Below are positions 8,029 through 64,000 of a stretch of 64,000 nucleotides of DNA, piece by piece. This DNA comes from Candidatus Omnitrophota bacterium (GTDB lineage Bacteria > Omnitrophota > Gorgyraeia > JABMRN01 > RBG-13-46-9): NCBI GenBank assembly GCA_043817155.1, contig JBDRHE010000087.1:983-64982 (forward strand), written 5' to 3'. A program made the translations under genes and the position numbers. The notes below the pieces were generated by a model that did not search any database, was not told the origin of the DNA, and saw only the letters and a program-made list of their open reading frames with translations. Numbering within the stretch: position 1 is the stretch's first letter; every line of letters begins with the position of its first letter.

Positions 8029-8107
8029 TGTCATTCCCGCGTAAGCGGGAATCCAGAGTAGGGGGGCTCGTCTGAATCCCCGCTTTCGCGGGGATGACAT
8101 GTGGGAG
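8029..8107. repeat. Family-B REP-like element (TGTCATTCCCGCG-TAAG-CGGGAATCCAG ... CTGAATCCCCGC-TTTC-GCGGGGATGACATGTGGGAG)
   Basis: Two hairpins arranged as a larger inverted repeat; copies at 12939-13027, 26995-27074, 27764-27853, 27962-27997. Confidence 0.75.
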
Positions 8108-8127
8108 AAGCGGGGTGACACGAAAGA

Positions 8128-9588: not shown

Positions 9589-9597
9589 TGCGTTGCA

Positions 9598-9652
9598 TTC
9601 AAGTCCCGGGCTTGTTTAAAGTGGTTTACCTAGAAAGCCCGGGACTTGAATG
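9598..9652. repeat. Family-C palindrome, third copy
   Basis: TTCAAGTCCCGGGCTTG...AAGCCCGGGACTTGAATG; followed by two GGGGACAGTCCCC hairpins at 9685-9697 and 9714-9727. Confidence 0.7.
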
Positions 9653-9760
9653 TGAGCAAGCTCGGGATTATCGTTAATGTGAGAGGGGACAGTCCCCAGA
9701 GAAGGATTCCGGAGGGGGGACAGTCCCTATAGTGTTCGCAAAGACGAGTAAAAGGTAAAC

Positions 9761-12700: not shown

Positions 12701-12895
12701 CCCGCTATGATGACCACAGTCACGACGATCATAGCGCTTATGCCTGTTATGCTATCGACCGGCACCGGCTCGGAGATCATGAAGCCTATGGCTGCTCCCA
12801 CGGTAGGCGGCCTAATAACAGCTACGCTGTCTAATCTGATTTTAGTTCCGGTTTTATACTGCTGGATGAAAGAGAGGCAGATAAGAAGCGGGTAA
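9761..12895 (+). CDS. Heavy-metal efflux RND transporter (CusA/CzcA HME family)
   Basis: 1044 aa, 12 TM RND architecture, HME-family N-terminus. Confidence 0.9.
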   Translation: MINKIIETCLKNRFLVIAVFVFIVVWGFSSMQDIPIDAIPDIGELQVIVYADWPGRSPRDVEDQVIYPLTTGLMGTPGVKVVRSTSAFGFGIVNMIFKDGTDFYWARTRVLERLDFAKKDVPKDVSVTLGPDATALGQIFWYTVEGEGYDLAQLRSIQDWYIRYQLNAVEGVSEVASVGGYVKQYQIDVDPNKLLAYDIKIHKVMSAVRSSNIDVGAKVFEEGGAEFIVRGIGFIKNTEDIEDIVIGSKEGVPIYIKNVANVIIGADFRRGALDKAGKEVTGGVILMRYGENPLKVIERIKNKMGELSVGLPKGVKIIPFYDRTGLILRSIDTLKDALIQEIIITVLVIIIFLLHFWGSVVIAIVLPIGVLISFILMKQYGIDANIMSLGGIAIAIGVMVDSGCVLVENIYRRITTRRLELGVERLKPDERLNVCISGAQEVGKPVLFALLTTIIGFMPVFVLTGQAGKLFRPLAFTKTFAMMGAAMIALMLLPTLCYYFLKGRMRHVDDNKTAQFLYKIYKPAINWSLKRKNIVVFISIGIIIAGLFCASLMKQEFMPPLNEGDLLFMPVLLPGASLTQVMEVMKKQDITIKSEFPEVEWAVGKLGRAETSTDPAPVTMIETIIHLKDKKFWRKGMTREKLIRQIQEKTKIAGVSPIMTQPIRNRIDMLATGIQTPVGIKVFGKDLSTIVEVATEIEKIVSGVEGAVSPYAERTSNRPYFEIEIDRKQAARYGVEIGDIQHIIMTAIGGMNLTTTVEGRERYPVRVRYLRELRDSPEALNRIFVPTPQGEHIPLTQVARLKKVPGPAVINSENTLTYARIFVNVDQDIVGLIDFVNNAQNAVKEKIDSGELKLPPGYFISWSGQFESEMESRKKLIPSLIIALFVIMILLYVAFKNFSTLLILATGLPVGLMGGIILLFFLNFKFSTAVWVGFIALFGVATDNAVVLLSTLEDLFKKKVPKSVEDIRKTVIEGGLLRVRPAMMTTVTTIIALMPVMLSTGTGSEIMKPMAAPTVGGLITATLSNLILVPVLYCWMKERQIRSG

Positions 12896-45041: not shown

Positions 45042-46139
45042 GTGATTACACAGATGAGCAAGGGTTCGAACATACTGGCTCTCGGGGCCGATATGAAGAG
45101 CAGGTATCTGGTCGCAAGCGGCAGCAAGCTCGAGTTCGGTCCGGAGATAGGGGATCTCGGCGAGGCCAGGAACTTCGCATTCTTCAAGAGGAAAGTACAA
45201 CAGGTCGTCAAAAGGACAAAGCCGGCTATTATAACGCATGACCTGCATCCCGGTTATTTTTCCACCCGATTGGCCAGGAGAATAGGCGCCGAACATCCTG
45301 CTGCCAGTCTACTGCCGGTCCAACACCACTATGCTCACATAGCAAGCGTGATGGCCGAATTTGGATTAAAAGGACCCGCTATAGGGGTTGCGCTTGACGG
45401 AACAGGTTTGGGTACTGACGGAAATATATGGGGTGGCGAATTTATTGTGGTGAGAAACCGGAACTTCAACCGTGTGGGGCATTTCAAATATATCAGGATG
45501 CCGGGCGGGGAGAAGGTTATAAGCGAGATCTGGAGAATGGTTATTAGCATACTGGGCAGAGTCGGGTGTCCGTTCCTAAAAGATGTTGAGGAGATAGCGA
45601 AAGAGATGCTCATATCCATGATGGAGAAGGGTATCAATTCGCCGTTAACCTCAAGTGTCGGCAGGATCTTCGACGCTGCCGCGTCGCTTACAGGCGTCTG
45701 TCGGGAAGCCGCATATGAAGCGGAAGGACCGATAAAGCTCGAGAAACTATGTGATTACAAGATCAAGGAAAGTTATAATTTCACGATATCAAAAAATAAG
45801 GGCACATTTACAATCGATGTAAGGCCAATTTTTTTTGAATTGATTAAAGATCTCAAGAAAAGAACGAAGAGATCGGTTATTGCTACGAAATTCCACAATT
45901 CAATGGTTATGGCGGTCTTTAAAATGGTAAAGAAGATAACGGAAGAAACCGGGATAAAGGATGTTCTGCTCTCGGGAGGGGTGTTCCAGAACAGTTTTTT
46001 GAGAAGGAGGCTCATGGAGAAGTTGTCCAAAGCCGGGTTCAAGGTTTTTATAAATGAAAAGACGCCGGTAAATGACCATAATATAGCACTTGGGCAGTAT
46101 TATATCGCGAAGAATTATCCACAAACGAACAGTAAGTAG
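45042..46139 (+). CDS. hypF: HypF-like carbamoyltransferase, Kae1-like C-terminal domain only
   Basis: PVQHHYAHIASV and VALDGTGLGTDGNIWGGEF match the HypF C-terminal domain; no acylphosphatase, Zn-finger or YrdC domains; begins MITQM at a GATTACACAGATG motif. Confidence 0.75.
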   Translation: MITQMSKGSNILALGADMKSRYLVASGSKLEFGPEIGDLGEARNFAFFKRKVQQVVKRTKPAIITHDLHPGYFSTRLARRIGAEHPAASLLPVQHHYAHIASVMAEFGLKGPAIGVALDGTGLGTDGNIWGGEFIVVRNRNFNRVGHFKYIRMPGGEKVISEIWRMVISILGRVGCPFLKDVEEIAKEMLISMMEKGINSPLTSSVGRIFDAAASLTGVCREAAYEAEGPIKLEKLCDYKIKESYNFTISKNKGTFTIDVRPIFFELIKDLKKRTKRSVIATKFHNSMVMAVFKMVKKITEETGIKDVLLSGGVFQNSFLRRRLMEKLSKAGFKVFINEKTPVNDHNIALGQYYIAKNYPQTNSK

Positions 46140-48938: not shown

Positions 48939-49835
48939 ATGCTAGTAAAATACATGAAAGAGAGTCTGCAAGTTTTATATATTACGGCAGCATCGCTTGG
49001 ATTTGTCCATACAGTCTTTGGACCGGACCACTACCTACCTTTTATCGTAATGGGCCGGGCCAGAGAATGGTCACTCGCGAAGACATTGTGGATAACATTT
49101 CTCTGCGGCATCGGACATATATTAGGCTCTGTTCTTCTTGGCATGATGGGTATAGCCTTTGGCATAGGGGTAATGCGGCTAGAAGCTCTGGAGGAGATTC
49201 GGGGAAATCTTGCAGCGTGGGTCTTGATTGGATTTGGGCTCGCCTATTTTGTGTGGGGGCTTCGAAGGGCAATAAGATATAGATCGCATCGTCACAAACA
49301 TCTTCATCCGCCTCCGCAGGAAACCCCAGCTTTGGCCGGGGAAGAATGTGGCAGTTCTGCTTCCGCCTTCGCTGAATGGCATTCGCGTTCAGCTTCGGCG
49401 GACAAGTCGGCGAGATGTCGCCTCGAAGATGGCGGGCGGATGCCGCGCCGAAGCTCGAAGAGCGAAGGCGGGCTCCACAGTGGTGATGACCGCCATGCCC
49501 ACGGCCATGTACATACAGGTGGGCACTCACACGTCCACGACAAGAATGGAAAAAACATAACCCCGTGGATACTTTTTACAATCTTCGTCCTTGGGCCGTG
49601 CGAACCGCTCATACCGCTTCTTATGTACCCGGCATCGAAAAGCAGCATGACGGGACTCGTCTGGGTAACGGCCATATTCGGTGTAGTGACGGTCCTGACA
49701 ATGATTTCGATCGTGCTTTTAATGTCTTTAGGGGTTAACCTCATTCCGCTCGGAAAACTGGAACGCTATACCCACGCTCTAGCCGGTGCCACGATACTCC
49801 TTTCCGGCCTCGCTATACAATTCCTTGGTTTATAA
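48939..49835 (+). CDS. NicO/RcnA-family nickel/cobalt transporter with His-rich loop
   Basis: TM motifs VHTVFGPDH and GPCEPLIP (compare RcnA LHGLEPGH / LIPCP); central HAHGHVHTGGHSHVH loop; follows the hyp genes. Confidence 0.65.
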   Translation: MLVKYMKESLQVLYITAASLGFVHTVFGPDHYLPFIVMGRAREWSLAKTLWITFLCGIGHILGSVLLGMMGIAFGIGVMRLEALEEIRGNLAAWVLIGFGLAYFVWGLRRAIRYRSHRHKHLHPPPQETPALAGEECGSSASAFAEWHSRSASADKSARCRLEDGGRMPRRSSKSEGGLHSGDDRHAHGHVHTGGHSHVHDKNGKNITPWILFTIFVLGPCEPLIPLLMYPASKSSMTGLVWVTAIFGVVTVLTMISIVLLMSLGVNLIPLGKLERYTHALAGATILLSGLAIQFLGL

Positions 49836-52983: not shown

Positions 52984-53011
52984 TGATTGATAGTCTCTCG
53001 CGTAGTATTAT
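52984..53011 (+). promoter_or_regulatory. Sigma70-like promoter, TTGATT-N16-TATTAT, ahead of the coiled-coil gene array
   Basis: Hexamers at 52984-89 and 53006-11. Confidence 0.4.
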
Positions 53012-53081
53012 ACTAACATATTATTATTGTCAAAGGCTTTGCGTATATCAGCGCGTAACAAAAGTACGAAAACCATAAGGT

Positions 53082-53891
53082 ATGCAAGCTAAAAAACCCT
53101 TTTTTCTAGCAGTACTTGTATTCATAAGCATCTTCTTCGCATTTCTCACCTTTTCAATGTATCGCCACTTAAAGACGTCCGAGGCCGAATTCAACTTCAA
53201 GGAAGCCACCCTTACGAAGGAGAATCTGGGCTTGAGAGACGAAGCAAAGTCCATGCTGGAGGAGTTCGAGAAGAACATTGAAAAGCTTACTCTGTTTGAA
53301 GAAGAGAAGAGGTCGCTAAACCTGCAGCACTCCGAAGAGATCAAGGTACTGACAGAAGATAAAGCAAACCTCGAGAAGAAGATAAGAGAGTTGCAGAATA
53401 GATCTTTTATCCAGAACCTCAGGGATGCAATGCATAAAGAAGAGAACGAAAATGCAAAGAAATTCTTCGAAAGAATACTTTACGACATAGTTACTTTACG
53501 AAGCGTTAAAAATATTGAGCTTGAACCCATAATCGTGACCGAGAAGAAGAGCTCTTCCTTTGGCGGAAAGTCCGGGGATAAGCCGAATAGGAAAGGCGCG
53601 CAGGTTTCCAAAGAACCACTGCCAAAATCTACGGTCAACGTTTTTTCCGGCAAGAGAGGCAAGATAGTCTCGATCGATGATGCATACAACCTTGTGATCA
53701 TAGATCTGGGTCGCAAAGATGGTATAAACGGAGGCGAAGAGATCGCGATACTTAAAGGAGGAGAGGAGATAGCCCGCGCCCAAATAATAAACGTGCGCTA
53801 CAAAATATCGGCAGCGTTTATAAATAATATTGGGCAGAAATATAGTGTTCGTAGTATCACAAAGGGCTATGATGTTCTGATATCTGAGTAA
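53082..53891 (+). CDS. Membrane-anchored coiled-coil protein with a C-terminal beta-rich domain related to the N-domains of the three downstream giant proteins
   Basis: N-terminal TM FFLAVLVFISIFFAFLTF; central coiled coil; C-terminal GKIVSIDDAYNLVIIDLG...GEEIAILKG resembles the shared domain. Confidence 0.6.
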   Translation: MQAKKPFFLAVLVFISIFFAFLTFSMYRHLKTSEAEFNFKEATLTKENLGLRDEAKSMLEEFEKNIEKLTLFEEEKRSLNLQHSEEIKVLTEDKANLEKKIRELQNRSFIQNLRDAMHKEENENAKKFFERILYDIVTLRSVKNIELEPIIVTEKKSSSFGGKSGDKPNRKGAQVSKEPLPKSTVNVFSGKRGKIVSIDDAYNLVIIDLGRKDGINGGEEIAILKGGEEIARAQIINVRYKISAAFINNIGQKYSVRSITKGYDVLISE

Positions 53892-53946
53892 CAGTATGGA
53901 GGTCTCTTATAATTTGCAGGGCAATGTTTAGGGAGGTGAGCGCCCG

Positions 53947-56900
53947 ATGATTTCGATAATAATGCACAAGATGAACCGTTCAGCCGTTAAAAAGATGATA
54001 GTTTGTATGGCAATTATGCTAATTTGCGTTCCGCGTATATTGGATGCACAGAATATGGGGGGGAAAGAGGGGAGTGTCCTATATGTGAGCGATGCAGGGG
54101 ATTTTGTTTTTATCGATTTAAGCCAGATCGATGTCAAGCAAGGTGATTTTGTGGAAATTTACAGGGGTTCGAAACAGATCGCTTCCGGATCAATTAAGGC
54201 GCCGATGGAAAAGATGTCCGAAGCCACCGTTTTAGAGAAGAATACAGAGGTAATTATTGGCGATCGAATAGTAATAACAGCATCCCCGAAAAGGCTACCC
54301 CCTGCTACTGAAAAGATCGTAATTGAAGAAGATGAACAAGATCTGGTCGAGGTTGAAGAAGAGATAGGACGCTTACCTGCGTCGGGGGAAGTAATCAGGG
54401 AAGATCCGGAGTACGGAGAACTAAATAGAAGATTTGTTTTACTCCAGGATGAAAAAGCGAAGGTATTCGCTGAATTAAACAGGGAGATAGCATCGCTTAA
54501 GAGCAGCAAGAGAAGTCTTGAACAACAGCTCGAGTCCGCAGAGAGGACCGAAGGTTCAGAGGAAAAGGATCTTCTGGTCAAGATAGAGGACTTAGAGCAA
54601 TCGAAAAAAGATATAATGGCGCTCTTAAATAAGAAGATAGTTTCGATACAAGAGGAGAGCGCAAAAACAGAATCCATGTTACGATCGGAGATAGTCGCCC
54701 TTAAAAGGGAGAAGAAGGTCTCAGAAGATGACTTTGGGATCAAAAGCAAATCTTCAAAAAGCGCAATTGTAAAATCTCTTGAAAAAGAACTGAGAGAGCT
54801 TAAGGAGTCTAAGAGAGATGAGATAGCAAAACTGGAAAAGAAGATTGCGCAATTGGAAATGTCAAATAAAGAGAGTGAAGTTAAACTAAACAATCTTCTA
54901 GATGAAAAGAACGTTTCAACAGAAGGAGCAGAAGTTTCTAAACTCCAGAAAGAGCTCCGGGAGCTGAAAAGTGAGAAGAGCCAGACCGAATCGAAGCTAA
55001 AGAACGAAATAGAGTCACTTAAAGATGCCAAAGGTACTTTAAAGAATGAAACGGCGGAGCTTGAAAAGAGGTTGCTGGATTCAGAGAGGTCAAGGGAAGA
55101 GGCCATAACAGGATTGCAGAAATCTCTGGATAGCAGCAATGCTTCAAAAGATAGTGAAGTTGCGAAGCTGCATAAAGAGCTCCAGGCTCTGAAAAGTGAG
55201 AAGAGCCAGACCGAATCGAAGCTGAATAACGAAATACAGTCTCTCAAAAATGCCGGAGAGAGCCTGAGGGTAACAATAGCTAATATGGAGAAGTCCGCAG
55301 CAGAGAATGCGGCAAAATTAGAAAATGAGCACCGCACTTTCAAAAAATACTCAGAATATGAAATAGTAAACCTCAAAGATGAATCGAAGAATCTGTCAAG
55401 AGAGAAAGAGAACATGGAATCTCTGCTGAAGGCCAATGACCAGGCGCATAAGAATCAATTAAAGGAGCTGGAAGAGGCCAGAAGAGAGGCCATTGCAGAC
55501 CTGGAAAATAAGATGCTGGATCTGAAGAGCTCGAAAGACGAGGCCATAGCAGGATTGCAGAAATCCCTGGATAGCAGCAATGCTTCAAAAGATAGTGAAG
55601 TTGCGAAGCTGCATAAAGAGCTCCAGACTCTGATAGGCGAGAGGAGCCAGACCGAATCGAAGCTGAATAACGAAATACAGTCACTTAAAGATGCCAAAGT
55701 TAGTTTAAAGAATGAAACGGCGGAGCGCGAAAAGAGGTTGCTGGATTCAGAGAGGTCAAGGGAAGAGGCCATAGCAGAATTGCAGAAATCCCTGAATAGT
55801 AGCAATGCTTCAAAAGATAGTGAAGTTGCGAAGCTGCATAAAGAGCTCCAGACGCTGGTAGCGGAGAAGAGGGAGACCGAATCGAAGCTGAATAATGAAA
55901 TACAGTCTCTCAAAAATGCCGGAGAGAGCCTGAGGGTAACAATAGCTAATATGGAGAAGTCCGCAGCAGAGAATATTGCAAAGACAAAAGGCGAACACCA
56001 GACTTTTAGGAAATACTCAGAATACGAAATAGCAAATCTTAAGAATGACCTGGAAAATCTGTCAAGCGAGAAAGAGAATACGGAAGCTATGCTGAAGGCC
56101 AATGCCGAGACTCTTAAAAATCAACTAAACGCGCTGGAAGAGGCCAGAAGAGAGGCCATTGCGGATCTGGAAAATAAGACGCTGGATCTGAAGAGCTCGA
56201 AAGACGAGGCCATAGCGAGTCTTCAAAAAGCCCTTGATAGCAGCAATGCTTCAAAACAACTTGAGACGGCTAAGTTGCAGGATGAGCTCCAGGTCTTGAG
56301 GGCAGAGAAGAACGAGAGCGAATCTAAGCTGAATAGCAAGATACAGGTTCTTGTCAACATCGAAAGCAACCTGAAGGCCAGGATCGCCGATATGGAAAGA
56401 TCCGAAGTCGAGAAGATAGAAGAATTAAGAAAGGAATATGGCACTTTTAAGAAGATCGCGGAAGATGGGGTATCAAAGCTTAAAGGTAGTATTGAGGATC
56501 TGTCCAGGGATAAGATGAGCATGGAATCTACATTGAGGGGGGAAATTGAAGCTCTTAATAAACAACTGGACGAGCTGGAAGAGGCCAAAAGAGAGGCGAT
56601 AGCGGATCTGGGAGAGAAGATGCTGGATCTAAAAAAATCGAATGAATATACAACGGCCAGATTACAGGATGTCGTAGATAACAGAGATGTTAAAATAGAG
56701 GCAGAGGTTTCGAAAGTAGAGGATAAGTTCCAGGCTTTAAGGATGGAGAAGAGAGAGAGTGAGTCTAAGCTAAAGAACGAGATACAGGCCCTTGCCAATA
56801 TCGAAAGCAATCTTAAGGACAAAATAGCTGATATGGAGAGATCCAACGAGGAGATTATAGCGAAATTTAAAAGTGAACGATTCGCTTTAGAAAAGACCGC

Positions 56901-58596
56901 GGAGAGCAAGATAGCAATGCTTGAAGCTGAATTACAGGCTCTATCCATAGAGAAGGAGAATGCGGGATCAACATTGAATGCCCAGCTCGAGTCAATACAG
57001 ACGGCCCACAGGGCATTGCAGGCGTCCAAGGTATCTCTCGATAACGAAATGAAGGCTTTAAAAGAGTCCCATGCTAACACCGTATCCTATTTGGAGGATA
57101 GGCTAAAGGCTCTTAACGAGTCTAAAGACGAAAAGATAGTGAAGTTAGAAGCCAAGTTGGTAGAGGCCGAAGAAGATAAGATGGCTGCTATCACAAAACA
57201 AAAGAATGAATTTATCGCTCTTGACAAATTTAAAGATGAGGCGCGCATAAAACTTGATAACGAATTCCAGGAGTTGCGCGATCAAAAGAAGAATTCAGAG
57301 TTCAAATTAAACGCCGAAATAATTGCATTGAGAGAGACCGAGCAGGCATTGCGCACTGAGCTGGCAAATATTAACGAATCCAGTGAAGAGACCATTTCAA
57401 AATTGAAGGATGAACTTGGGAAGGTAAACAATGAGTACGCCAAGACCGAATCGGCGCTGGGGGATAGGGTTAAGGCCCTGGAAGAGGAGAATGATGGGCT
57501 GAAAGCCGAGTCTGCTTCGCTTAAGAAATCTAAAGAGGAGACTGTATCGATGCTTGAGGGCGAATTGCTTTCAAGGGACAAGGTCATAAATGTACTAAAG
57601 GGCGGCCTGGCTTCCCTGGAGAGCAGGCATGCCAAGAAAGAGTCGGTTCTACTTAGAGAAGTCGAATCGCTTAAAGCAAGACAGAAGGTTACGGAGGCGA
57701 AGAGCGCTACTTTTGAGGAGGCGGCAAATAACGCTCAAGAGACTCTTCATACTCAGCTTGTCATACTTTCCGAAGGAAGAGAAGATGAATCTATCGAACA
57801 GCTTAAGACCGACCTTAAGTACCTGGGTGTTGGCAAGAAGGAGATAGAAGCGAAGATGAGCGTTGAAATCGCCGCCCTGAGAAAGGCGGAGGTTGTTCTC
57901 AGCAACAGACTCGCTGAACTGGAGAAGTCTAAGGCCGAGGAAGTAATGCTATTGCAAAACAAGCTTTATGAGCTTGAAAAGTCCAAAGAGGAGACTATAG
58001 CAGAACTGAAGAATCGACTTGGTAACATGGATAGAGTTAGTTCAACGGCAGAGACGACATTAGCAGATCAGACAGCTTATCTGGAAGAGACTGAAGCGAA
58101 GCTGAGAAGAGAAGTCGCCGACATCAAGAGATCCCATGACCAGACAGTTGCCGAGTTAAACTCGGAGCTCATCGCGTTACGTGACGAAAAGAGAAGGAAG
58201 GGAACCGATTTGAATAAAGAGATGACTCTGCAAATAGAGAAGGAGAGGCTCCTGAAGACGAGATTAGCAGACGCTGAAGAGGTGAAAAGGTCTCAAGAAA
58301 CCAGACTGACCGCTATGGTATCCAAGATCGCCGACCTGAACAAGGAGAAGGATCTCATTGAAACCGCGCTAAAGGATCAGCTCGCGGTGCTTAAAGCAGA
58401 AAACGCTGAAATAAAGAAGGTGCTGGCAAGCGGATTAAAGGGGTTAAAGAGCGAAATCGAAGCTGCGCAAGAAGAAAATAATAGAATAACAAAGTTGCTT
58501 GCTGTGCTTAAAGAGGATTTAAGGAAATCTAATGAGGAGAAGATGATGCTGAAGAGCATAGTCGATGAGTCTATTGGCAAGCCTGATGGGATATAG
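53947..58596 (+). CDS. Giant coiled-coil protein (1549 aa) with signal peptide or anchor and a conserved ~70-aa N-terminal beta-rich domain
   Basis: N-terminal hydrophobic segment then GKEGSVLYVSDAGDFVFIDLSQIDVKQGDFVEIYRG...IGDRIVI, followed by ~1400 aa K/E-rich heptad repeats with near-identical internal tandem repeats. Confidence 0.8.
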   Translation: MISIIMHKMNRSAVKKMIVCMAIMLICVPRILDAQNMGGKEGSVLYVSDAGDFVFIDLSQIDVKQGDFVEIYRGSKQIASGSIKAPMEKMSEATVLEKNTEVIIGDRIVITASPKRLPPATEKIVIEEDEQDLVEVEEEIGRLPASGEVIREDPEYGELNRRFVLLQDEKAKVFAELNREIASLKSSKRSLEQQLESAERTEGSEEKDLLVKIEDLEQSKKDIMALLNKKIVSIQEESAKTESMLRSEIVALKREKKVSEDDFGIKSKSSKSAIVKSLEKELRELKESKRDEIAKLEKKIAQLEMSNKESEVKLNNLLDEKNVSTEGAEVSKLQKELRELKSEKSQTESKLKNEIESLKDAKGTLKNETAELEKRLLDSERSREEAITGLQKSLDSSNASKDSEVAKLHKELQALKSEKSQTESKLNNEIQSLKNAGESLRVTIANMEKSAAENAAKLENEHRTFKKYSEYEIVNLKDESKNLSREKENMESLLKANDQAHKNQLKELEEARREAIADLENKMLDLKSSKDEAIAGLQKSLDSSNASKDSEVAKLHKELQTLIGERSQTESKLNNEIQSLKDAKVSLKNETAEREKRLLDSERSREEAIAELQKSLNSSNASKDSEVAKLHKELQTLVAEKRETESKLNNEIQSLKNAGESLRVTIANMEKSAAENIAKTKGEHQTFRKYSEYEIANLKNDLENLSSEKENTEAMLKANAETLKNQLNALEEARREAIADLENKTLDLKSSKDEAIASLQKALDSSNASKQLETAKLQDELQVLRAEKNESESKLNSKIQVLVNIESNLKARIADMERSEVEKIEELRKEYGTFKKIAEDGVSKLKGSIEDLSRDKMSMESTLRGEIEALNKQLDELEEAKREAIADLGEKMLDLKKSNEYTTARLQDVVDNRDVKIEAEVSKVEDKFQALRMEKRESESKLKNEIQALANIESNLKDKIADMERSNEEIIAKFKSERFALEKTAESKIAMLEAELQALSIEKENAGSTLNAQLESIQTAHRALQASKVSLDNEMKALKESHANTVSYLEDRLKALNESKDEKIVKLEAKLVEAEEDKMAAITKQKNEFIALDKFKDEARIKLDNEFQELRDQKKNSEFKLNAEIIALRETEQALRTELANINESSEETISKLKDELGKVNNEYAKTESALGDRVKALEEENDGLKAESASLKKSKEETVSMLEGELLSRDKVINVLKGGLASLESRHAKKESVLLREVESLKARQKVTEAKSATFEEAANNAQETLHTQLVILSEGREDESIEQLKTDLKYLGVGKKEIEAKMSVEIAALRKAEVVLSNRLAELEKSKAEEVMLLQNKLYELEKSKEETIAELKNRLGNMDRVSSTAETTLADQTAYLEETEAKLRREVADIKRSHDQTVAELNSELIALRDEKRRKGTDLNKEMTLQIEKERLLKTRLADAEEVKRSQETRLTAMVSKIADLNKEKDLIETALKDQLAVLKAENAEIKKVLASGLKGLKSEIEAAQEENNRITKLLAVLKEDLRKSNEEKMMLKSIVDESIGKPDGI

Positions 58597-58644
58597 GGAG
58601 ATGTCGGTTTTAATATATTTACGAACACCGGAGATGAGAGCTCA

Positions 58645-61600
58645 ATGATTTCAACGCTGACAAAGAGAAGGGTGCCTGTCAAAGCGATGCGCGCGGTGCT
58701 TTGTATAGGGATCATAGTACTTTGTGTTTCGCATATTTCAGGCGCACAGGATATGTCTGCAAAAGAGGGCAGCATACTGTATGTCAGCGACGCGGGTGAT
58801 TTCGTATTTATCGATTTAAGTCAAATTGATGTTGGCTACGGTGATTTTGTAGAGGTTTACAGAGGAAAGGAGCGCATAGCAACCGGGGCAATAAGGGTGG
58901 TTATGGAGGAGATGTCGGAGGCCGTTCTTACGGAGAGCAAGGCAGAGGTCAATATAGGCGATCGTATCGTAATCCCAAAATCTACGAGGAGGTCGCGTGG
59001 CAAAGTTCGTGAGGTCAGAGTCGGAGGAGATACGACTATGGCTAGTGAGAGGCAGGCTCGCCCAGTTGAACCTGAGACGCTTTCCGGTGAAGATTACTTA
59101 ATCGGAGAACAGTATGATGAGGCCTCTCTTCTTCAGGATCAAATGAGTTCGATGGAATCTGAACTGACAAGAGAGATAGAAACCCTCAAGCGCGAAAAAA
59201 CGGAACTTATGCGTAAACTTCAATCTAAGGAAGAACCCGGAAGCGCCAGAGAGATAGAGAAGCTCCGAAATGAGATCAATGAATTGAAGCGTTCCAGGAA
59301 AGAGGTAATGGGGATTTTGAATGACAAGATCGCTTCCACAGAAGATGCGAGAAAGAAGATCGAGAAGGCATTACGGGCGGAGATAGCGGCGCTTAAGATG
59401 AAGAAAGATGTTTCTTCGGAGCCCAAGCCTAAAGAGATAGAAAAAGGATCGTCCGCAAACTCTAAAGAGATTAAAACGTTAAAGGGACAACTTAAAGAAC
59501 TTGAAACATCCAAAAGTGACGCGATAGCCAGTCTCGAGGCAAGAATAGAAGAGTCAGAAAAATCTAGGAAGTATGCCCTGGCTGAACTAGAGAGAAAACA
59601 TGTCGATAAGGAAAGAGAGAGCGTAGCGCAGATATCAAAGTTGAAAGACGAGATCCGGGCGTTCAATAAGGAGAAGAGCGATGCGGGGTTGAAGGTCGAA
59701 GATGAGATCGAATCGTTAAAGAAGAACGAAGAACGCCTCCTTAATAAGGTATCCGCTCTTGAGAAGATCAAGGAGGAGCTCATTTTGCAGCAGAGGATGA
59801 GTTCTAAAAAAGAAAATAGAGAAGCAGGGCTTGAAACAAAAATTGCATCTCTCGAGGGTGAAAACAGGTCTCTTCAGAAAGAGCTTACGACCCTTAAAGA
59901 ATCTCAGGAGAATACACTCTCTTACCTCGAAAGCAAACTTGAAAATGCTAAGAGATCAGGGGACGGGGCTGTTATGCAATTGCAGCAGCAGCTGGACCTG
60001 GAGAGAAAATCCGGGAGAGAGACTGCTGAAAAGATCAAAAATGAGTTTGCAGCTCTTGACAGATCGAAGGAGGAGACGATCGTAAATCTGAGGGACGAAC
60101 TTCAGGGCCTACGCATCCAAAAAGAGAACTCAGAATTTAAGCTCAGCACCGAGATAAATTCTCTGAAAGAGACAGAGCAGGTTTTGAGGAGTGAGCTGGC
60201 GAAAATTAATGAATCGAGCGAAGAGACTATAGAGAAGTTGAAGAATGAGCTCGGAAGGATAAACAACGATTATGCCAAGACCGAATCCGTCTTAGAGGAT
60301 AAGGTAGCGGTTCAGGACCAGACCAATGAGAGATTAAGGATTGAGCTTACCGCGCTTAAGAAGTCTAAAGAAGAGTCCATTGCCAGACTTGCCGGTGAGG
60401 TGCGCACGAAAGAAAAGGCCATAAACGCGCTAAAGGGCGGATATGATGCGTTACAGAACGGGCAGTCAAATAAGGAGGCAATGTTACGCGCAGAAGTCGA
60501 CTCACTTAAGAACAGAGAGAAGGTTTTGCAGGAGAAGATAACTGCTCTTGAGGAGTCTACGCAGAGCGCCCATGAGGCTCTTCGAAGCCAACTTGATATA
60601 TTCGCAAAGGGTAGAACCGACGGATCCATAGAGAAGCTGAAAAAGGATCTCGAAGTCATCGATGAAGAAAAAAGAGTTTTGGAATCGCGTACGAGCGCTG
60701 AAATCGCCGCTTTAAGGAAGACTGAACTTGCCCTACGGACGGAACTGGCTAAATTAGAAAAGACGAGCAACGAGACAATATCAAAGTTGCAGGCCGATAT
60801 TAATAACCTTGGACAATCCAAAACAGAGAATCTGGATCAGCTAAAGAATCAGCTCCGCGATTTGAATAGGATAAGTGTTAAAGCCGAATCTGCTTTGGCC
60901 AATCAGAACTCTCTCTTAAAAGCAACCGTAGAGAAGCTCAAGCTTGAACTTACAGAGGCTAAGAAGACGAACGAAGATATCGTATCCAGAATGAATTCGG
61001 ACCTTGCATCGATGAGAGAAGTAAATATAGATAGCGAAACCGGACTAAAGAGAGAGGTAAACGCTGCAAGGGAGCAGGTGACGGATTTAAAGAGAAGGCT
61101 CAAAGAGGCCGAAGAGGGGAAAGCGGCGCTGGCTACAATGCAAGGAGATATCGAATCTAAACTTAGAGCGCTAAAAGATGAAAGGGATACAATGGATTTG
61201 GGATTGAAGGACAGGATCGCGGAACTCGTATTATTGTCAGAGCAAAAGGCAAAGAACGAAGTCGAGCTGAAGAGAACGGCAAGCGCTTTACAAACAGAGG
61301 TGATGGATCTAAAGCAGAAACTGAAAGAGGGTAGATCTTCAGAAGCACAGGTGATGGATTTGAGGGAGAAACTGAGAGAGGCTGAGAGGGAGAAGGCAAC
61401 GCTGGCTACCAGGCAGGGAGATATCGAATCTCAACTTAGAGAGCTCAAAGACGAAAGAGATGTGGTGGATTTGGGATTGAAGAATAGGATAGCGGAGATT
61501 AAGGCAGAGAATGCCGCTATTAAGAATGTATTGGCAGGCGAACTGCTGGTTGTAAAAGGTGAAATTGAAACCGCGCAGAAAGAGAATCGTGAAATGTCTA

Positions 61601-61704
61601 CACAGTTGCGCAAGCTAAAAGAGTCCCTGGCGGAATCGAATGAAGAGAAACGCATTCTGAAAAATATCGTCCAGAAGTCTCTGGGCATTGAAGATGAAAT
61701 ATAA
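58645..61704 (+). CDS. Giant coiled-coil protein paralog (1019 aa), same architecture
   Basis: N-domain AKEGSILYVSDAGDFVFIDLSQIDVGYGDFVEVYRG...IGDRIVI about 75% identical to the upstream gene; conserved C-terminal tail (EEK(M/R)(M/I)LK(S/N)IV...). Confidence 0.8.
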   Translation: MISTLTKRRVPVKAMRAVLCIGIIVLCVSHISGAQDMSAKEGSILYVSDAGDFVFIDLSQIDVGYGDFVEVYRGKERIATGAIRVVMEEMSEAVLTESKAEVNIGDRIVIPKSTRRSRGKVREVRVGGDTTMASERQARPVEPETLSGEDYLIGEQYDEASLLQDQMSSMESELTREIETLKREKTELMRKLQSKEEPGSAREIEKLRNEINELKRSRKEVMGILNDKIASTEDARKKIEKALRAEIAALKMKKDVSSEPKPKEIEKGSSANSKEIKTLKGQLKELETSKSDAIASLEARIEESEKSRKYALAELERKHVDKERESVAQISKLKDEIRAFNKEKSDAGLKVEDEIESLKKNEERLLNKVSALEKIKEELILQQRMSSKKENREAGLETKIASLEGENRSLQKELTTLKESQENTLSYLESKLENAKRSGDGAVMQLQQQLDLERKSGRETAEKIKNEFAALDRSKEETIVNLRDELQGLRIQKENSEFKLSTEINSLKETEQVLRSELAKINESSEETIEKLKNELGRINNDYAKTESVLEDKVAVQDQTNERLRIELTALKKSKEESIARLAGEVRTKEKAINALKGGYDALQNGQSNKEAMLRAEVDSLKNREKVLQEKITALEESTQSAHEALRSQLDIFAKGRTDGSIEKLKKDLEVIDEEKRVLESRTSAEIAALRKTELALRTELAKLEKTSNETISKLQADINNLGQSKTENLDQLKNQLRDLNRISVKAESALANQNSLLKATVEKLKLELTEAKKTNEDIVSRMNSDLASMREVNIDSETGLKREVNAAREQVTDLKRRLKEAEEGKAALATMQGDIESKLRALKDERDTMDLGLKDRIAELVLLSEQKAKNEVELKRTASALQTEVMDLKQKLKEGRSSEAQVMDLREKLREAEREKATLATRQGDIESQLRELKDERDVVDLGLKNRIAEIKAENAAIKNVLAGELLVVKGEIETAQKENREMSTQLRKLKESLAESNEEKRILKNIVQKSLGIEDEI

Positions 61705-61726
61705 GGCCGCATCAAAGTTAGCGGAG

Positions 61727-61810
61727 TCCCCCGGACTAAAGTCCGGGGCTGCCTCCATCAAAAACACGTATCACCTGCCGTATTCATTCCCGGGCTCAAG
61801 CCCGGGGAAT
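61727..61810. repeat. Family-C-like CCCGGG-centred hairpins between the giant genes
   Basis: CCCCGGACTAAAGTCCGGGG and ATTCCCGGGCTCAAGCCCGGGGAAT. Confidence 0.6.
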
Positions 61811-61855
61811 CCTGCGGGCGGATCGAACCTACTTATTAAGGGGGTGAAGACCATA

Positions 61856-64000
61856 ATGCCAGTAAGTCCGGCACCGAGAAAAAATCGGAAGGCTGCGTTT
61901 TTTATCATTGCGATCATAGCGCTATCGGTAAATCTTTATGTTGCACAGCGTTGCATCGCCCAGCCGGCAGGCGGGAAAGAAGGGGTTGTCGTTCATGCGA
62001 ACAACAGAGATGATTTTGTATTTATAAATATCGGCTATAGTGAAGTGAACAAGGGTGATTTTGTAGAGATATACAAAGGGTCCAAACGTGTAGCCAATGG
62101 ATTGGTAAAGAACGCCCTCAATGAAGTCTCGGAGGTATCGATCCTTGACAGAAACCAGGCGGTGGATGTCGGGGATAGGATAGTTGTGACAGGTTCGGAA
62201 AGCGGTTTGGCTGCTGCCCCGGAGGGCGCGGATAGCATTTCCAAAGACGCTTCTTTACAGGTTTTGCCGGCAAGCGATAAGGATTTCGCAATTTCGGATG
62301 ATGAAACCGAAAAGGACGATCGGTCTTACGAAGTGCCGGCCGGCGAAGATCGCAGAAATTCGATGCATTCGTTCGAGCTTGGATCCGAAGTTGAATCTTT
62401 AAGAGATACCGAGAAATTATTACGTGAAAAGCTGTCAGATCTTAAGAAGACCAGCCAGTTATCCACTATTAAATTTGAAAACGAGATACGCGAACTTATA
62501 GGTCTGCAGAGATCCAAAGACAAGGCGATAAGCGATCTTGAGGGAGAGCTTGAGAAGTCGAGAAGGGAAAGAGAGGACGCAGAATCCGTTCTTAAGGCCG
62601 AAATAGCTTCTCTTAAAGATAGGGGAAAAAGTTTGGAAGGAAGACTGGAATATTTAGAGGAGTCCAAAGGGTATACAGAAAAGAGCTTGAAAGCGGAAAT
62701 GGATTCGCTTAAAGCGTCCAAAGAAGACGCTATAGGCATGCTCCAGGGAGAGATCACCCGGATCGAGGAGTCTAAAAAAGAATCTATAGCACAGCTTGAG
62801 GAAGAGCTCGAGAATCTCGATAAGTCGCTTTTCAGGTCCAAGGAAGACGCTATTGCCAAGCTCAATGCGAAGATGGGAGAAATAAACGAGGAACGGGCAA
62901 AAAATGAGACTGCTTTTACCGCGCAGATCACATACCTCAAGGATAACGAGATATTATTAAAGAAGGAGATCGAAGCTCTAAATAAATCTAGAGACGATAT
63001 TATTTCGAAACTTGGTGAAGAGCTGAAAACCTTGAGCGCATCCAAAAAGGAAGGTATCACTAGCTTAGATGAGAAGCTAAAGGTTTTAAGGCGGGAGAAG
63101 GCGGAGACCGAAATCTCCCTACAGACCGAGATAGCGTCTTTAAAGGCTACTGAAAAGGCGCTGAAGGAAGCGCTTCTCGATCTCAAGAAGTCTAAGATGG
63201 CCGCACTCACAAAAACCGAAGTTGAAACGCAGGAACTTATAAAGTCGAAAGATGGGATCATCGCAAAGCTAAAGGACGATCTCCTTGGATTGAAAAAGAA
63301 GAGCGAAGAAGAGATATCCGCTTTGAACCTCAGCCTTCTGTCCATGAATGACAAAGGGAAGGTAATGGAGGGGAAATTCGAATATCTTGAAGAGTCCAAA
63401 CAGTTTGCCGAGAAAGCGCACAGAGACGAGTTGCAAGCGCTTAAAGAGTCGCGGGACGCCTCAGTAGCTAAGCTCGAGAACGAACTTCTTACGCTACACG
63501 GGTCCAAAAAGAGTATAGTTCTGGAACTCGAGAATGAGCTGAAGGCAGCAAACCAGGCAAAGGTGGAAATAGAATCTGCCCTTAGCGCCAAGATCGCATC
63601 CCTCAAGGGATCGGAGCTATCACTCCAAAGAGAACTCGCAAATCTCAAGACGTCCAAAGCGGATGCCGTAACCAGTCTCGAAAAAGAGATATTCGATCTT
63701 ACAGCCGCTAAGGACGAAAAGATAGCCTTAATGGAGAAGGAGCTGGCAAGTTTGGGTAGCAATAAGGATGAGCTGGAGTCGAAGCTGAATACCGAAATCG
63801 CGTCACTTAAGAACGTTTCGGCAGCGCAGATAAGTGAATTAGAGAGTGTGAAGAGATCCAGGGACGATGCTATAGTGAATCTTCAAAAAGAGATCGAGGT
63901 GCTGAACAAATCCAAGAACGATATTATGGCGAATTTTGAGAAAGAACTGGCCACTATAACCAAAACCAAGGCTGGTTCGATCGCGAGGCTCGATGAAGAG
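61856..64000 (+). CDS. Third coiled-coil paralog, 5' partial (>715 aa, continues past the window edge)
   Basis: Hydrophobic N-terminus then GKEGVVVHANNRDDFVFINIGYSEVNKGDFVEIYKG...VGDRIVV; open frame with heptad-repeat composition to 64000; the track's minus-strand ORF 62326-63762 is its antisense shadow. Confidence 0.75.
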   Translation, partial: MPVSPAPRKNRKAAFFIIAIIALSVNLYVAQRCIAQPAGGKEGVVVHANNRDDFVFINIGYSEVNKGDFVEIYKGSKRVANGLVKNALNEVSEVSILDRNQAVDVGDRIVVTGSESGLAAAPEGADSISKDASLQVLPASDKDFAISDDETEKDDRSYEVPAGEDRRNSMHSFELGSEVESLRDTEKLLREKLSDLKKTSQLSTIKFENEIRELIGLQRSKDKAISDLEGELEKSRREREDAESVLKAEIASLKDRGKSLEGRLEYLEESKGYTEKSLKAEMDSLKASKEDAIGMLQGEITRIEESKKESIAQLEEELENLDKSLFRSKEDAIAKLNAKMGEINEERAKNETAFTAQITYLKDNEILLKKEIEALNKSRDDIISKLGEELKTLSASKKEGITSLDEKLKVLRREKAETEISLQTEIASLKATEKALKEALLDLKKSKMAALTKTEVETQELIKSKDGIIAKLKDDLLGLKKKSEEEISALNLSLLSMNDKGKVMEGKFEYLEESKQFAEKAHRDELQALKESRDASVAKLENELLTLHGSKKSIVLELENELKAANQAKVEIESALSAKIASLKGSELSLQRELANLKTSKADAVTSLEKEIFDLTAAKDEKIALMEKELASLGSNKDELESKLNTEIASLKNVSAAQISELESVKRSRDDAIVNLQKEIEVLNKSKNDIMANFEKELATITKTKAGSIARLDEE

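What the first reader, a model, noticed from the sequence alone, without database searches (positions are those of the whole stretch)
52984..64000. Operon-like array of four co-oriented coiled-coil proteins sharing a novel beta-rich domain: one small membrane-anchored member plus three giant secreted paralogs
Four consecutive + strand genes with 45-150-bp spacers and one upstream promoter-like site. P0 (269 aa) is TM-anchored with the shared ~70-aa domain at its C-terminus. P1 (1549 aa), P2 (1019 aa) and P3 (>715 aa) carry a hydrophobic N-terminal signal or anchor and the same domain at the N-terminus (G-K-E-G-x-V-x-x-x-x-x-x-D-F-V-F-I-x-x-x-x-x-x-V-x-x-G-D-F-V-E-x-Y-x-G ... G-D-R-I-V), followed by hundreds of K/E-rich heptad repeats. 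P1 and P2 also share blocks along the rod and a conserved C-terminal tail. I cannot match the domain to a named family. Reciprocal placement of the domain (C-terminal in the small partner, N-terminal in the giants) suggests a tether/anchor or polymerising scaffold such as an envelope, periplasmic or surface filament. Tandem paralogy with active internal recombination (see the intragenic repeat finding) points to a fast-evolving structural or surface system. Candidate new protein family and system.
Basis: partly seen in the sequence, partly recalled or inferred. Interest (0 to 1): 0.85.

Follow-up and report, generated by a model that had tools for sequence, protein, structure and literature searches.

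The report
Exported coiled-coil rods with FlgT-like barrel
Four neighbouring genes of an uncultivated Omnitrophota bacterium encode one membrane-anchored protein and three very long exported helical rods; they share a small beta-barrel that is not new but a stripped-down relative of the ring-building FlgT/TsaP domain, so this is an uncharacterised envelope scaffold built from known parts.

Summary
There are four real + strand genes: P0 (269 aa), P1 (1549), P2 (1019) and P3 (>715, cut by the window end). The spacers are 55, 48 and 151 bp. All four share a ~78-aa domain; the N-terminal and C-terminal versions are homologous (hhalign 98%, E 2e-13), and the window holds exactly four copies.

The source is a Candidatus Omnitrophota MAG. 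All named proteins with the N-terminal barrel plus coiled coil are Omnitrophota hypotheticals. In two related MAGs the syntenic slot after NadE and hexokinase holds one 288-308-aa membrane-anchored mini version, so the giants are a local expansion.

The rods are proline-free, show a heptad signal and an 18/50/68-residue repeat, and would span about 80-206 nm.

The most likely reading is an envelope (periplasmic) scaffold or tether that docks through the barrels; this is inferred, not shown. It is a new architectural variant of a known domain family.

The parts
52987..53014 (+). Sigma-70-like promoter match (TTGATA-16-TATACT) upstream of P0
   Evidence: 10 of 12 matches, but the number of such sites in the region equals the shuffle expectation (12 vs 12.0), so it is only a candidate.
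53082..53891 (+). P0: 269-aa bitopic protein (N-terminal anchor, helical stalk, C-terminal barrel). It belongs to a conserved 260-320-aa family.
   Evidence: ORF; full-length alignment with 19 homologues at 29-39% identity; identical to NCBI 'MAG: hypothetical protein ABID09_08235 [Candidatus Omnitrophota bacterium]'.
53097..53162 (+). P0 N-terminal transmembrane anchor (residues about 6-27)
   Evidence: a 22-residue uncharged hydrophobic run; the family mean is 22.6. AF2 helix with pLDDT about 90. Orientation is not settled by charge bias (+2.25 N-side vs +1.55 C-side).
53169..53504 (+). P0 helical stalk (residues about 30-141), including the family-conserved segment before the linker
   Evidence: continuous helices 5-119 and 123-141, with pLDDT 83-92 over residues 51-100; conserved motifs FNxKKAxLIKENLDLKD and KEENxxxKKxLE...LEPIVV.
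53640..53888 (+). P0 C-terminal FlgT_C-like beta-barrel (residues 187-269)
   Evidence: E 6e-24 to the family profile; hhalign 98% to the P1-type barrel.
53947..58596 (+). P1: 1549-aa exported rod protein (signal peptide, barrel, acidic linker, about 1390-residue helical rod, conserved tail)
   Evidence: A Shine-Dalgarno-like AGGGAGGTGA lies upstream.
53947..54051 (+). P1 predicted Sec signal peptide (n-region with K/R, h-region MIVCMAIMLICV, c-region ...LDA|Q)
   Evidence: the n/h/c organisation is conserved across 18 family members. Inference only; no SignalP run.
54052..54285 (+). P1 N-terminal FlgT_C-like beta-barrel (residues 36-113)
54931..55896 (+). Intragenic duplications inside the P1 rod (300-nt copies at 54931, 55372 and 55597; 666-nt = 222-aa spacing between the 88%-identical pair)
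   Evidence: direct repeat family D1. (protein autocorrelation peak at lag 222).
58366..58593 (+). P1 conserved C-terminal tail (last 76 residues)
   Evidence: 53% identity to the P2 tail, against 34-39% for the rods.
58645..61704 (+). P2: 1019-aa exported rod protein, recent paralogue of P1
   Evidence: Barrel 68% identical to P1.
58750..58983 (+). P2 N-terminal FlgT_C-like beta-barrel
   Evidence: E 9e-26.
61474..61701 (+). P2 conserved C-terminal tail
61730..61806 (+). Two G+C-rich hairpins (CCCGGACTAAAGTCCGGG and CCCGGGCTCAAGCCCGGG) in the 151-bp P2-P3 spacer, possibly a transcript-end or stabiliser element
   Evidence: the only copies in the window, 0 expected by chance; both hairpins are in the MFE and centroid folds; region z = -2.1; no T-tract follows.
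61856..64000 (+). P3: more than 715 aa, an older paralogue running off the window end (signal peptide, barrel, rod with the clearest 68-residue repeat)
   Evidence: lags 68, 18 and 50; closest outside relative is P0007 (36% identity over 267 aa, E 5e-43).
61964..62197 (+). P3 N-terminal FlgT_C-like beta-barrel
   Evidence: E 5.5e-24.

Best explanation
SHOWN. The four genes encode proteins that share a single-copy, finger-less member of the FlgT_C/TsaP six-strand beta-barrel family.
- P0 carries the barrel at the end of a helical stalk behind an N-terminal membrane anchor.
- P1-P3 carry it directly behind a Sec-type signal peptide. It is followed by an acidic linker and a proline-free helical rod built from an 18/50/68-residue repeat with a heptad signal.
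- Fully extended, the rods would measure about 206 nm (P1), 128 nm (P2) and more than 81 nm (P3).
- The family with an N-terminal barrel plus coiled coil is, as far as names exist, specific to Omnitrophota.
- In two related MAGs the same genomic slot (NadE - hexokinase - x) holds one 288-308-aa version that also has a C-terminal membrane anchor. The giants are therefore a local tandem amplification and elongation of a small ancestral envelope gene.
- Sequence conservation is highest at the two ends (barrel 68%, tail 53%) and lowest in the rod (34-39%).

INFERRED. The barrels lie in the periplasm, as in FlgT and TsaP. They act as docking or oligomerisation modules, either with each other (P0 with P1-P3) or with another envelope ring. 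This would tie the rods to the inner membrane. The rods are far longer than a periplasm is wide, so they would run along the envelope as a scaffold or tether rather than across it. The rod serves as a fast-evolving spacer whose length is set by repeat gain and loss.
For: DOMAIN IDENTITY.
- The exhaustive profile search found 880 proteins at E <= 1e-3.
- Pfam FlgT_C is hit by 26 of 48 sampled members, best E 1.6e-8; P0009 scores 37 bits against a cut-off of 27.
- The profile matches TsaP 3jc8 at E 2.9e-6 and 6ve2 at E 6e-4, and FlgT 3w1e/8z5n weakly.

SHARED DOMAIN. hhalign 98% between the P1-type and P0-type barrels, and four copies only in the window.

EXPORT AND DIDERM ENVELOPE.
- The n/h/c signal features are conserved in 18 family members.
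- The window encodes a TolC/HlyD/AcrB efflux system.
- In relatives the same barrel-plus-coil module is fused to a C-terminal TM helix (P0006, P0008, P0016), a TolC-like OEP domain (P0002) or a second barrel (P0017). All of these place the module in the periplasm.

KNOWN ROLE OF THE FOLD. TsaP's FlgT-C-like domains form a heptameric belt on PilQ (10.1101/2020.05.29.123786). In the Vibrio LPHT ring, 26 FlgT subunits build the H ring and FlgT-C contacts FlgI and MotY (10.64898/2025.12.04.692373).

SYNTENY AND EXPANSION. L015 and L016.

ROD PROPERTIES..

END-BIASED CONSERVATION..
Against: - No direct evidence that P0 binds P1-P3.
- The P0/giant adjacency was not seen in any other locus examined. 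P0 orthologues pair with another P0-like gene. P1-like genes stand without a P0-like neighbour.
- The finger subdomain that mediates ring contacts in TsaP is missing. The TsaP insertion of 16-25 residues falls where the model has a tight hairpin. Oligomerisation cannot simply be transferred from TsaP.
- P0 orientation is only weakly supported by the positive-inside rule.
- P1 and P2 have no recognisable second anchor.
- Heptad occupancy is modest (0.61-0.64). The rods could fold back into helical hairpin bundles and be much shorter than 200 nm.
- The fold is common (F1/V1 crown, MreC, HerA barrels score similarly), so fold alone does not dictate function.
Confidence: 0.5

Rival explanations
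1. Secretin or polysaccharide-export accessory. The barrel is a secretin- or outer-ring-binding module as in TsaP. P0 and P1-P3 would be accessory, spacing or tethering components of a type IV pilus/T2SS-like or exopolysaccharide export apparatus encoded elsewhere in the genome.
For: - The closest solved sequence relative is TsaP.
- In L014 the 776-aa P1-like protein, with barrels at both ends, lies two genes upstream of a PilQ/GspD/MshL-type secretin. An ExeA/MshM-like ATPase lies between them and a TPR protein follows; the group is preceded by a histidine kinase, a response regulator and PilZ. L009 is syntenic.
- P0 orthologues sit next to PEP-CTERM-type polysaccharide genes: deacetylase with DUF3473, Bac_transf, ABC exporter, GT1, AsnB-like.
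- West-Roberts et al. describe a conserved gspD/E/F-pilin-PPIase-pilZ locus in Omnitrophota.
Against: - The window has no secretin, pilus or EPS gene within 53 kb upstream.
- The secretin adjacency rests on one locus plus one truncated syntenic copy.
- The syntenic mini genes (L015, L016) have a ParA-type ATPase and glycosyltransferases next to them, not a secretin.
- There is no LysM domain and no finger subdomain.
- A rod of 1,000-1,400 residues has no precedent or obvious use in a secretin belt.
Confidence: 0.2
2. Surface fibrils or adhesins. P1-P3 cross the outer membrane and form long surface fibres used for attachment to hosts or prey. P0 or another protein would serve as the base, and rapid repeat turnover would reflect surface-exposed variation.
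For: - Signal peptides, tandem paralogy, intragenic duplication and fast rod divergence.
- Omnitrophota are reported as ultra-small, host-dependent or predatory bacteria in which most very long proteins are membrane-anchored or secreted (PMC10066038 listed).
Against: - No recognisable outer-membrane translocation or anchoring signal. Pfam and NCBIfam show no autotransporter, T9SS, PEP-CTERM or T1SS repeat features.
- Relatives anchor the same module to the inner membrane or to a TolC-like barrel from the periplasmic side.
- Known homologues of the barrel are periplasmic.
Confidence: 0.15
3. Cytoplasmic SMC-like or cytoskeletal coiled-coil proteins. The N-terminal hydrophobic segments would be uncleaved anchors or irrelevant.
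For: - Weak NCBIfam matches to SMC and ASRP coiled-coil regions.
- JGI auto-names such as 'chromosome segregation ATPase' for some relatives.
Against: - Scores of 19-31 bits against cut-offs of 567-729, covering only the coiled-coil arms. There is no ATPase head or hinge.
- Conserved signal-peptide organisation.
- The barrel's relatives are periplasmic.
Confidence: 0.03
4. Assembly artefact: the giant ORFs are chimeras from collapsed or mis-joined repeats in a metagenome bin.
For: - The source is a MAG contig.
- Most P1-like relatives in public data are fragments on short contigs, which shows that such genes assemble poorly.
Against: - Uninterrupted frames of 1549 and 1019 codons, each with its own start, Shine-Dalgarno-like site, signal peptide, barrel and matching C-terminal tail.
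- The internal repeats are diverged (66-88% nt identity), not identical.
- P1 and P2 are collinear over most of their length.
Confidence: 0.02

Closest known systems
TsaP (type IV pilus secretin-associated protein; PDB 3jc8, 6ve2)
   Same: It is the best sequence-profile match among solved structures (E 2.9e-6 and 6e-4). It is a periplasmic protein whose FlgT-C-like barrels build an oligomeric belt on an outer-membrane machine. One P1-like relative is encoded next to a secretin.
   Different: TsaP has an N-terminal LysM domain and two tandem barrels, each with an extruding finger that makes the ring contacts. The window proteins have no LysM, a single barrel without the finger, and a long helical stalk or rod that TsaP lacks.
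FlgT (Vibrio flagellar H-ring protein; PDB 3w1e, 8z5n), Pfam FlgT_C PF16538
   Different: There are no FlgT-N or FlgT-M domains and no flagellar genes nearby. The window's own sequences fall below the Pfam threshold. The finger subdomain is absent.
MreC (rod-shape protein)
   Different: There is no significant Pfam MreC match for the window proteins, and only 2 of 48 family members match, weakly. P0 has one barrel rather than two, and no mreB/mreD context.
N-terminal 'crown' barrel of F1/V1-ATPase alpha/beta subunits and FliI
   Different: There is no sequence relationship and no ATPase domain. Those barrels are cytoplasmic.
Periplasmic coiled-coil spacers such as Braun's lipoprotein Lpp and Thermotoga Omp-alpha (recalled from my own knowledge, not tested here)
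   Same: These are exported helical coiled coils with a binding or anchoring module at one end. They set distances or tether layers in the envelope. The relative P0002, with the barrel and coil fused to a TolC-like outer-membrane domain, fits that logic.
   Different: Lpp is about 8 nm and Omp-alpha about 50 nm long. The anchors are different (lipid, SLH or TM), and those proteins span the periplasm. Rods of 80-200 nm could not.

Membership tests
Pfam FlgT_C (PF16538) domain family | The sequence matches the family HMM at or above the gathering score (27 bits) | tested here: not met
   no FlgT_C hit for P0-P3 or for the isolated P1 barrel, even at E <= 0.1 to 1.
Pfam FlgT_C (PF16538) domain family | Homology through intermediates: relatives found with the window's profile match FlgT_C | tested here: met
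   26 of 48 members match, best E 1.6e-8. P0009 scores 37 bits (cut-off 27); precomputed PF16538 on several hits; profile hits to TsaP (E 2.9e-6) and to FlgT (E 0.7).
Pfam FlgT_C (PF16538) domain family | Six-strand beta-roll/barrel fold superposable on FlgT-C | tested here: met
Pfam FlgT_C (PF16538) domain family | Extruding finger subdomain between strands, which mediates the ring contacts in TsaP | tested here: not met
   TsaP carries 16-25 extra residues between profile positions 43-46; the model has a two-residue hairpin there. describes the finger's role.
TsaP | N-terminal LysM peptidoglycan-binding domain plus two tandem FlgT-C-like domains | tested here: not met
   no LysM; one barrel per protein.
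TsaP | Functional or genomic association with a secretin | tested here: inconclusive
   None in the window. It is present for the relative P0017 in L014. Binding is not testable here.
FlgT (H-ring protein) | FlgT-N and FlgT-M domains and flagellar gene context | tested here: not met
   no such domains; no flagellar genes in the window.
MreC | Match to the MreC barrel core (PF04085) and an mreBCD context | tested here: not met
   no hit for P0 at E <= 1; 2 of 48 family members match weakly (E about 0.009). The neighbours are ZIP and hexokinase genes.
SMC / SMC-like ATPases | N- and C-terminal ATPase head halves and a hinge flanking the coiled coil | tested here: not met
   19-31 bits against cut-offs of 567-729, and only coiled-coil arms aligned. 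The N-terminus is a signal peptide plus barrel.
   no bactofilin or PilZ hit for the window proteins or the 48 family members.
Sec-exported (periplasmic) proteins | Cleavable signal peptide, and experimentally periplasmic localisation | not testable with these tools
   The n/h/c features and A-x-A-like sites are conserved. No SignalP/DeepTMHMM or experiment was available.

The most novel reading that the evidence does not exclude
Ultra-small Omnitrophota build a periplasmic (or surface) 'exoskeleton' from exported helical rods 80-200 nm long, comparable to the size reported for these ultra-small cells. The rods would be hubbed and tied to the inner membrane through finger-less FlgT_C-type barrels (P0 plus P1-P3). 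Rod length would be tuned by gain and loss of a 68-residue repeat. This would be a previously unseen kind of bacterial envelope cytoskeleton or tether, which might set cell size or shape, or mediate host contact.
Probability: 0.2. Interest if true: 0.75.

Novelty: new variant of a known kind. Interest (0 to 1): 0.5.

Why it matters
FlgT_C-type barrels are known only as accessory ring builders around two outer-membrane machines: the Vibrio flagellar LP ring and the type IV pilus secretin. Three things here go beyond that picture:
- The same barrel, stripped of its finger, is the conserved head of a large uncharacterised family. The profile finds 880 clusters at 50% identity, mostly membrane-anchored coiled-coil proteins.
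- In Omnitrophota it is joined to exported helical rods.
- In this MAG the rod genes have been tandemly amplified and lengthened to more than 1,000 residues.

If the rods lie in the periplasm, they would be a rare example of an extracytoplasmic filament system in a phylum of nano-sized, host-dependent bacteria whose cell biology is almost unknown. Even on the modest reading, the work provides several useful results:
- a family definition;
- a confident structural model;
- a syntenic ancestor gene;
- candidate partners (a secretin locus, a ParA-type ATPase, polysaccharide genes).

Together these make the function testable.

Tried and rejected
1. Word-indexed homology search with the P1 N-terminus (163 aa) gave no hits. 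With the P1-like alignment it gave only two short fragments. The index evidently lacks these proteins, so its silence is not evidence of rarity.

2. Exact-sequence contig look-ups for P2 and P0 found nothing on record. The window could therefore not be extended past 64000. The NCBI contig is only 65,509 bp, so P3 is probably also truncated at the source.

3. AF2 of full-length P0 without an alignment failed for the barrel (pLDDT < 30). That used one of the two prediction jobs, so no P0-P1 complex could be modelled.

4. Genome-collection scans.
   - The alignment-driven scan with the P0 family found 136 pattern matches, none confirmed.
   - MY ERROR: the hand-made pattern had two extra N and did not even match the window.
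   - The corrected, validated pattern found one metagenome locus.

5. The AFDB fold library was unavailable.

6. Rejected family assignments: phage origin (only a weak coiled-coil hit for P0); SMC, M-protein, bactofilin or PilZ; lipoprotein (no lipobox before Cys20 or Cys27; read directly from the sequence).

7. The neighbour ATPase of the mini genes was checked as a possible BY-kinase in a capsule co-polymerase pair. It is rejected: it is Soj/ParA-type (KGGTGKTT) with no tyrosine cluster.

8. The single-frequency Fourier test for heptads was not significant against shuffles. It was replaced by the a/d-register test.

9. Three giant hits of the profile search (P0010, P0031, P0139) are many short partial stretches. 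P0031 is a Pseudomonas Ig-like repeat protein, treated as a false positive; the other two carry no source name and were not followed up.

10. The context of the roughly 385-aa sister family (ROK kinase upstream, LacI downstream) gave no functional clue.

Full report
**1. What is in the sequence**

The region holds four + strand genes:
- P0: 53082-53891, 269 aa.
- P1: 53947-58596, 1549 aa.
- P2: 58645-61704, 1019 aa.
- P3: an open frame from ATG 61856 that runs off the window after 715 codons.

The spacers are 55, 48 and 151 bp. P1 and P3 have strong Shine-Dalgarno-like sequences. G+C content matches the rest of the window.

A promoter-like site lies at 52987-53014, but such sites occur at chance frequency here (12 found, 12.0 expected). 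Nearly all large ORFs in the 64-kb window are on the + strand; the few on the - strand lie inside + strand ORFs. Co-orientation therefore says nothing about an operon.

The 151-bp P2-P3 spacer carries two G+C-rich hairpins that occur nowhere else in the window. P3 may therefore be expressed somewhat separately.

**2. The shared domain is real**

- A profile built from the family finds exactly four copies in a six-frame scan of the window, one per gene (E 4e-24 to 9e-28), and nothing else above noise.
- The N-terminal (P1-type) and C-terminal (P0-type) versions are homologous by profile-profile comparison (probability 98%, E 1.9e-13, 78 columns).
- Barrel identities are 68% (P1/P2), 47% (P1/P3), 37% (P2/P3) and 25-29% to P0.

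**3. The domain is not new**

Pfam and NCBIfam give nothing for the window proteins themselves. The exhaustive profile search, however, found 880 proteins at E <= 1e-3.

- *Pfam link.* Of 48 diverse members, 26 hit Pfam FlgT_C (PF16538), best E 1.6e-8. One relative exceeds the curated threshold (37 against 27 bits).
- *Solved structures.* The profile matches the secretin-associated protein TsaP (3jc8 E 2.9e-6; 6ve2 E 6e-4). It matches FlgT weakly.
- *Missing finger.* In TsaP the two FlgT-C-like domains carry an 'extruding finger subdomain' that makes the contacts of the heptameric belt around PilQ (10.1101/2020.05.29.123786). The profile alignments show the TsaP insertion of 16-25 residues exactly where the window's barrel has a tight hairpin. 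The window's domain is therefore a minimal, finger-less member of the family.

**4. Termini and rods**

*Signal peptides.* P1-P3 and 15 relatives share a typical signal-peptide layout. It has a basic n-region, 13-26 uncharged residues, and small residues (AQA, SGA, ALA, LDA) a few residues before the barrel. This is an inference from sequence; no predictor was available.

*P0 anchor.* P0 has a TM-length uncharged segment (22 residues; family mean 22.6). The charge bias is weak (+2.25 N-side against +1.55 C-side). Its N-in/C-out orientation therefore rests mainly on the periplasmic location of the barrel's relatives.

*Rod composition.* The rods are rich in E, K and L. P1 has no proline between residues 155 and 1545. 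The heptad a/d signal is significant though moderate (occupancy 0.61-0.64, z 5.0-7.7 against shuffles).

*Rod repeats.* The rods are modular. Autocorrelation peaks at lags of 18, 50 and 68 residues, with recurring motifs of the kind SKxDAIxxL and EIxSLK. P1 also contains a recent 222-residue duplication (= 3 x 68 + 18), seen at 88% nucleotide identity. An 18-residue period (3.6 residues per turn) suggests nearly straight helices.

*Rod length.* Fully extended, the rods would measure about 206, 128 and more than 81 nm. A folded-back arrangement cannot be excluded.

*Where conservation lies.* P1 and P2 are collinear (39% identity over 617 residues, E 1e-104). They are most conserved at the two ends: barrel 68% and last 76 residues 53%. 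This pattern fits binding modules joined by a fast-evolving spacer.

**5. Source and relatives**

*Source.* P0 is identical to NCBI 'MAG: hypothetical protein ABID09_08235 [Candidatus Omnitrophota bacterium]' on a 65,509-bp contig. The window also encodes a TolC/HlyD/AcrB efflux system, so the organism is diderm. The rest of the window is housekeeping: PGI, transaldolase, rubrerythrin, Mbh/Mrp-type hydrogenase and Hyp maturation genes, NadE, hexokinase and ZIP.

*Architectures among the 150 best hits:*
- about 55 P0-like proteins (TM, coil, C-terminal barrel; 240-320 aa);
- about 45 longer ones of the same plan (390-475 aa);
- some tandem-barrel proteins, one from a Planctomycetota MAG;
- about 16 with the P1 plan (signal peptide, barrel, coil).

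*P0 family.* P0 belongs to a full-length conserved family (29-39% identity).

*P1-plan proteins.* All that carry a name are Omnitrophota hypotheticals. In them the module ends in one of three ways:
- a TM helix (P0006, P0008, P0016);
- a TolC-like outer-membrane domain (P0002; OEP E 9e-42);
- a second barrel (P0017).

Each arrangement places the barrel and coil in the periplasm.

**6. Genomic context elsewhere**

(a) *Synteny with the window.* Two Omnitrophota MAGs (L015 GCA_001804045.1; L016 GCA_016927795.1) are syntenic with the window. After NadE - (GATase) - hexokinase comes one mini P1-like gene of 288 or 308 aa. It has a C-terminal TM and a conserved cytoplasmic tail. A Soj/ParA-type ATPase and glycosyltransferases follow. 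The mini genes are closest to P1. The three giants, and the P0 copy in front of them, are thus a lineage-specific elaboration of a small ancestral envelope gene. P3 has its own closer relative elsewhere (P0007, E 5e-43), so it is the older paralogue.

(b) *Secretin neighbourhood.* In L014 (GCA_026387235.1) the 776-aa two-barrel relative follows a PAS histidine kinase and a response regulator. After it come an ExeA/MshM-like ATPase, a PilQ/GspD/MshL-type secretin and a TPR protein. The truncated metagenome locus L009 is syntenic.

(c) *P0 orthologues.* Elsewhere they come as two tandem P0-like genes. A CheY-like regulator and PEP-CTERM-style polysaccharide genes follow, with no giants.

The P0-plus-giants arrangement was seen only in this window.

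**7. Interpretation**

*Firm:*
- The genes are real.
- The barrel is a divergent FlgT_C/TsaP-type domain.
- The rod family is Omnitrophota-specific as far as names go.
- The giants arose by local amplification and repeat expansion.

*Inferred.* The barrels are probably periplasmic docking or oligomerisation modules. [quoted passage not shown] P0 would then be an inner-membrane stalk presenting a barrel, and P1-P3 exported rods presenting the same barrel. Rods this long cannot cross a periplasm, so they would lie along the envelope as a scaffold or tether.

*Confidence and rivals.* I put about 0.5 on this general reading. The rivals are:
- a secretin or polysaccharide-export accessory role (0.2), favoured by L014 and the P0 contexts but not by the window or the syntenic mini genes;
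- surface fibrils for host contact (0.15), with no export or anchor signal found;
- cytoplasmic SMC-like proteins (0.03), and assembly artefact (0.02), both poorly supported.

**8. Novelty**

Two recent Omnitrophota papers on very long proteins do not mention coiled coils or FlgT. They deal with multi-domain proteins of at least 10,000 aa. I found no description of this family.

It is best called a new architectural variant of a known domain family, not a new domain and not a categorically new system on present evidence.

**9. Limits**
- No signal-peptide predictor was available.
- The window could not be extended.
- One genome scan was wasted by my mistyped pattern.
- The context sample for P1-like genes is small (four loci), because these repeat-rich genes are mostly fragmented in public assemblies.

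Noticed in passing
window 61730-61747 and 61789-61806: Two near-identical G+C-rich palindromic hairpins (CCCGGRCTMAAGYCCGGG) lie in the P2-P3 spacer. They are the only copies in the 64-kb window, and no T-tract follows. They could be a REP-like element, a transcript stabiliser or an attenuator between P2 and P3.
   Followed up: partly
window 1-64000: Nearly all large ORFs lie on the + strand, and those on the - strand lie inside + strand ORFs. GC skew is positive in every 2-kb bin (cumulative skew rises monotonically). This is an unusually strict strand bias over 64 kb, and it removes co-orientation as evidence for operons here.
   Followed up: no
L015 10001-10867 and L016 10001-10927 (proteins P0008, P0006): The syntenic mini P1-like proteins share a conserved cytoplasmic C-terminal tail after their TM helix (F-x-PR-x-L-x-KF ... 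KE-x-KD-[IL]-FK). Each is followed directly by a Soj/ParA-type ATPase (KGGTGKTT). The tail may be a link to a ParA-like positioning system.
   Followed up: partly
L017 267-2516 (protein P0002): A 749-aa protein fuses the signal peptide, FlgT_C-like barrel and coiled coil to a TolC-like outer-membrane efflux domain (Pfam OEP, E 9e-42). This architecture would be a built-in outer-membrane tether.
   Followed up: partly
L014 12482-17865: A secretin locus lies next to the two-barrel relative P0017. It contains an ExeA/MshM-like ATPase (best match the XrtA/PEP-CTERM-associated ATPase, below cut-off), a 230-aa unknown, a PilQ/GspD/MshL-like secretin (all below cut-offs), and a coiled-coil+TPR protein. 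PilZ and PG_binding_1 genes lie upstream and a PPIase downstream. It resembles the conserved Omnitrophota secretion locus described by West-Roberts et al.
   Followed up: partly
L001 2367-4161, L007 1816-3594: P0 orthologues occur as two tandem paralogues. A single-domain response regulator and PEP-CTERM-style polysaccharide genes follow (deacetylase+DUF3473, ABC exporter, AsnB-like, GT1, PcRGLX-like lyase). In L004 a HAMP-GGDEF protein precedes the gene.
   Followed up: partly
window 45042-46139: The HypF-like ORF (365 aa) matches only the C-terminal Kae1-like domains (HypF_C, HypF_C_2). No acylphosphatase or zinc-finger N-terminal part was seen in this ORF. The gene may be split, truncated or mis-started (GTG start).
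   Followed up: no
window 48939-49835: A 298-aa ORF between HypE and NadE has no Pfam family at E <= 1e-4.
   Followed up: no
window 6701-12895: A TolC-like OEP, a HlyD-type adaptor with an N-terminal heavy-metal-binding domain (HMBD) and an AcrB-family pump lie here, forming a Cus-like RND metal efflux system. It was useful here only as evidence of a diderm envelope.
   Followed up: no
L012 10442-13978 vs L010 10355-12661: The ribonucleotide reductase next to the roughly 385-aa sister-family gene carries an intein with a LAGLIDADG endonuclease in one Omnitrophota contig. It is intein-free in another.
   Followed up: no
window 54424-58593, 59125-61701, 62366-64000 (rods): The rod repeats have lags of 18, 50 and 68 residues rather than multiples of 7. 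This hints at hendecad- or 18-residue-type straight helical bundles with conserved motifs (SKxDAIxxL, EIxSLK) shared with distant family members (P0006, P0007, P0117).
   Followed up: partly
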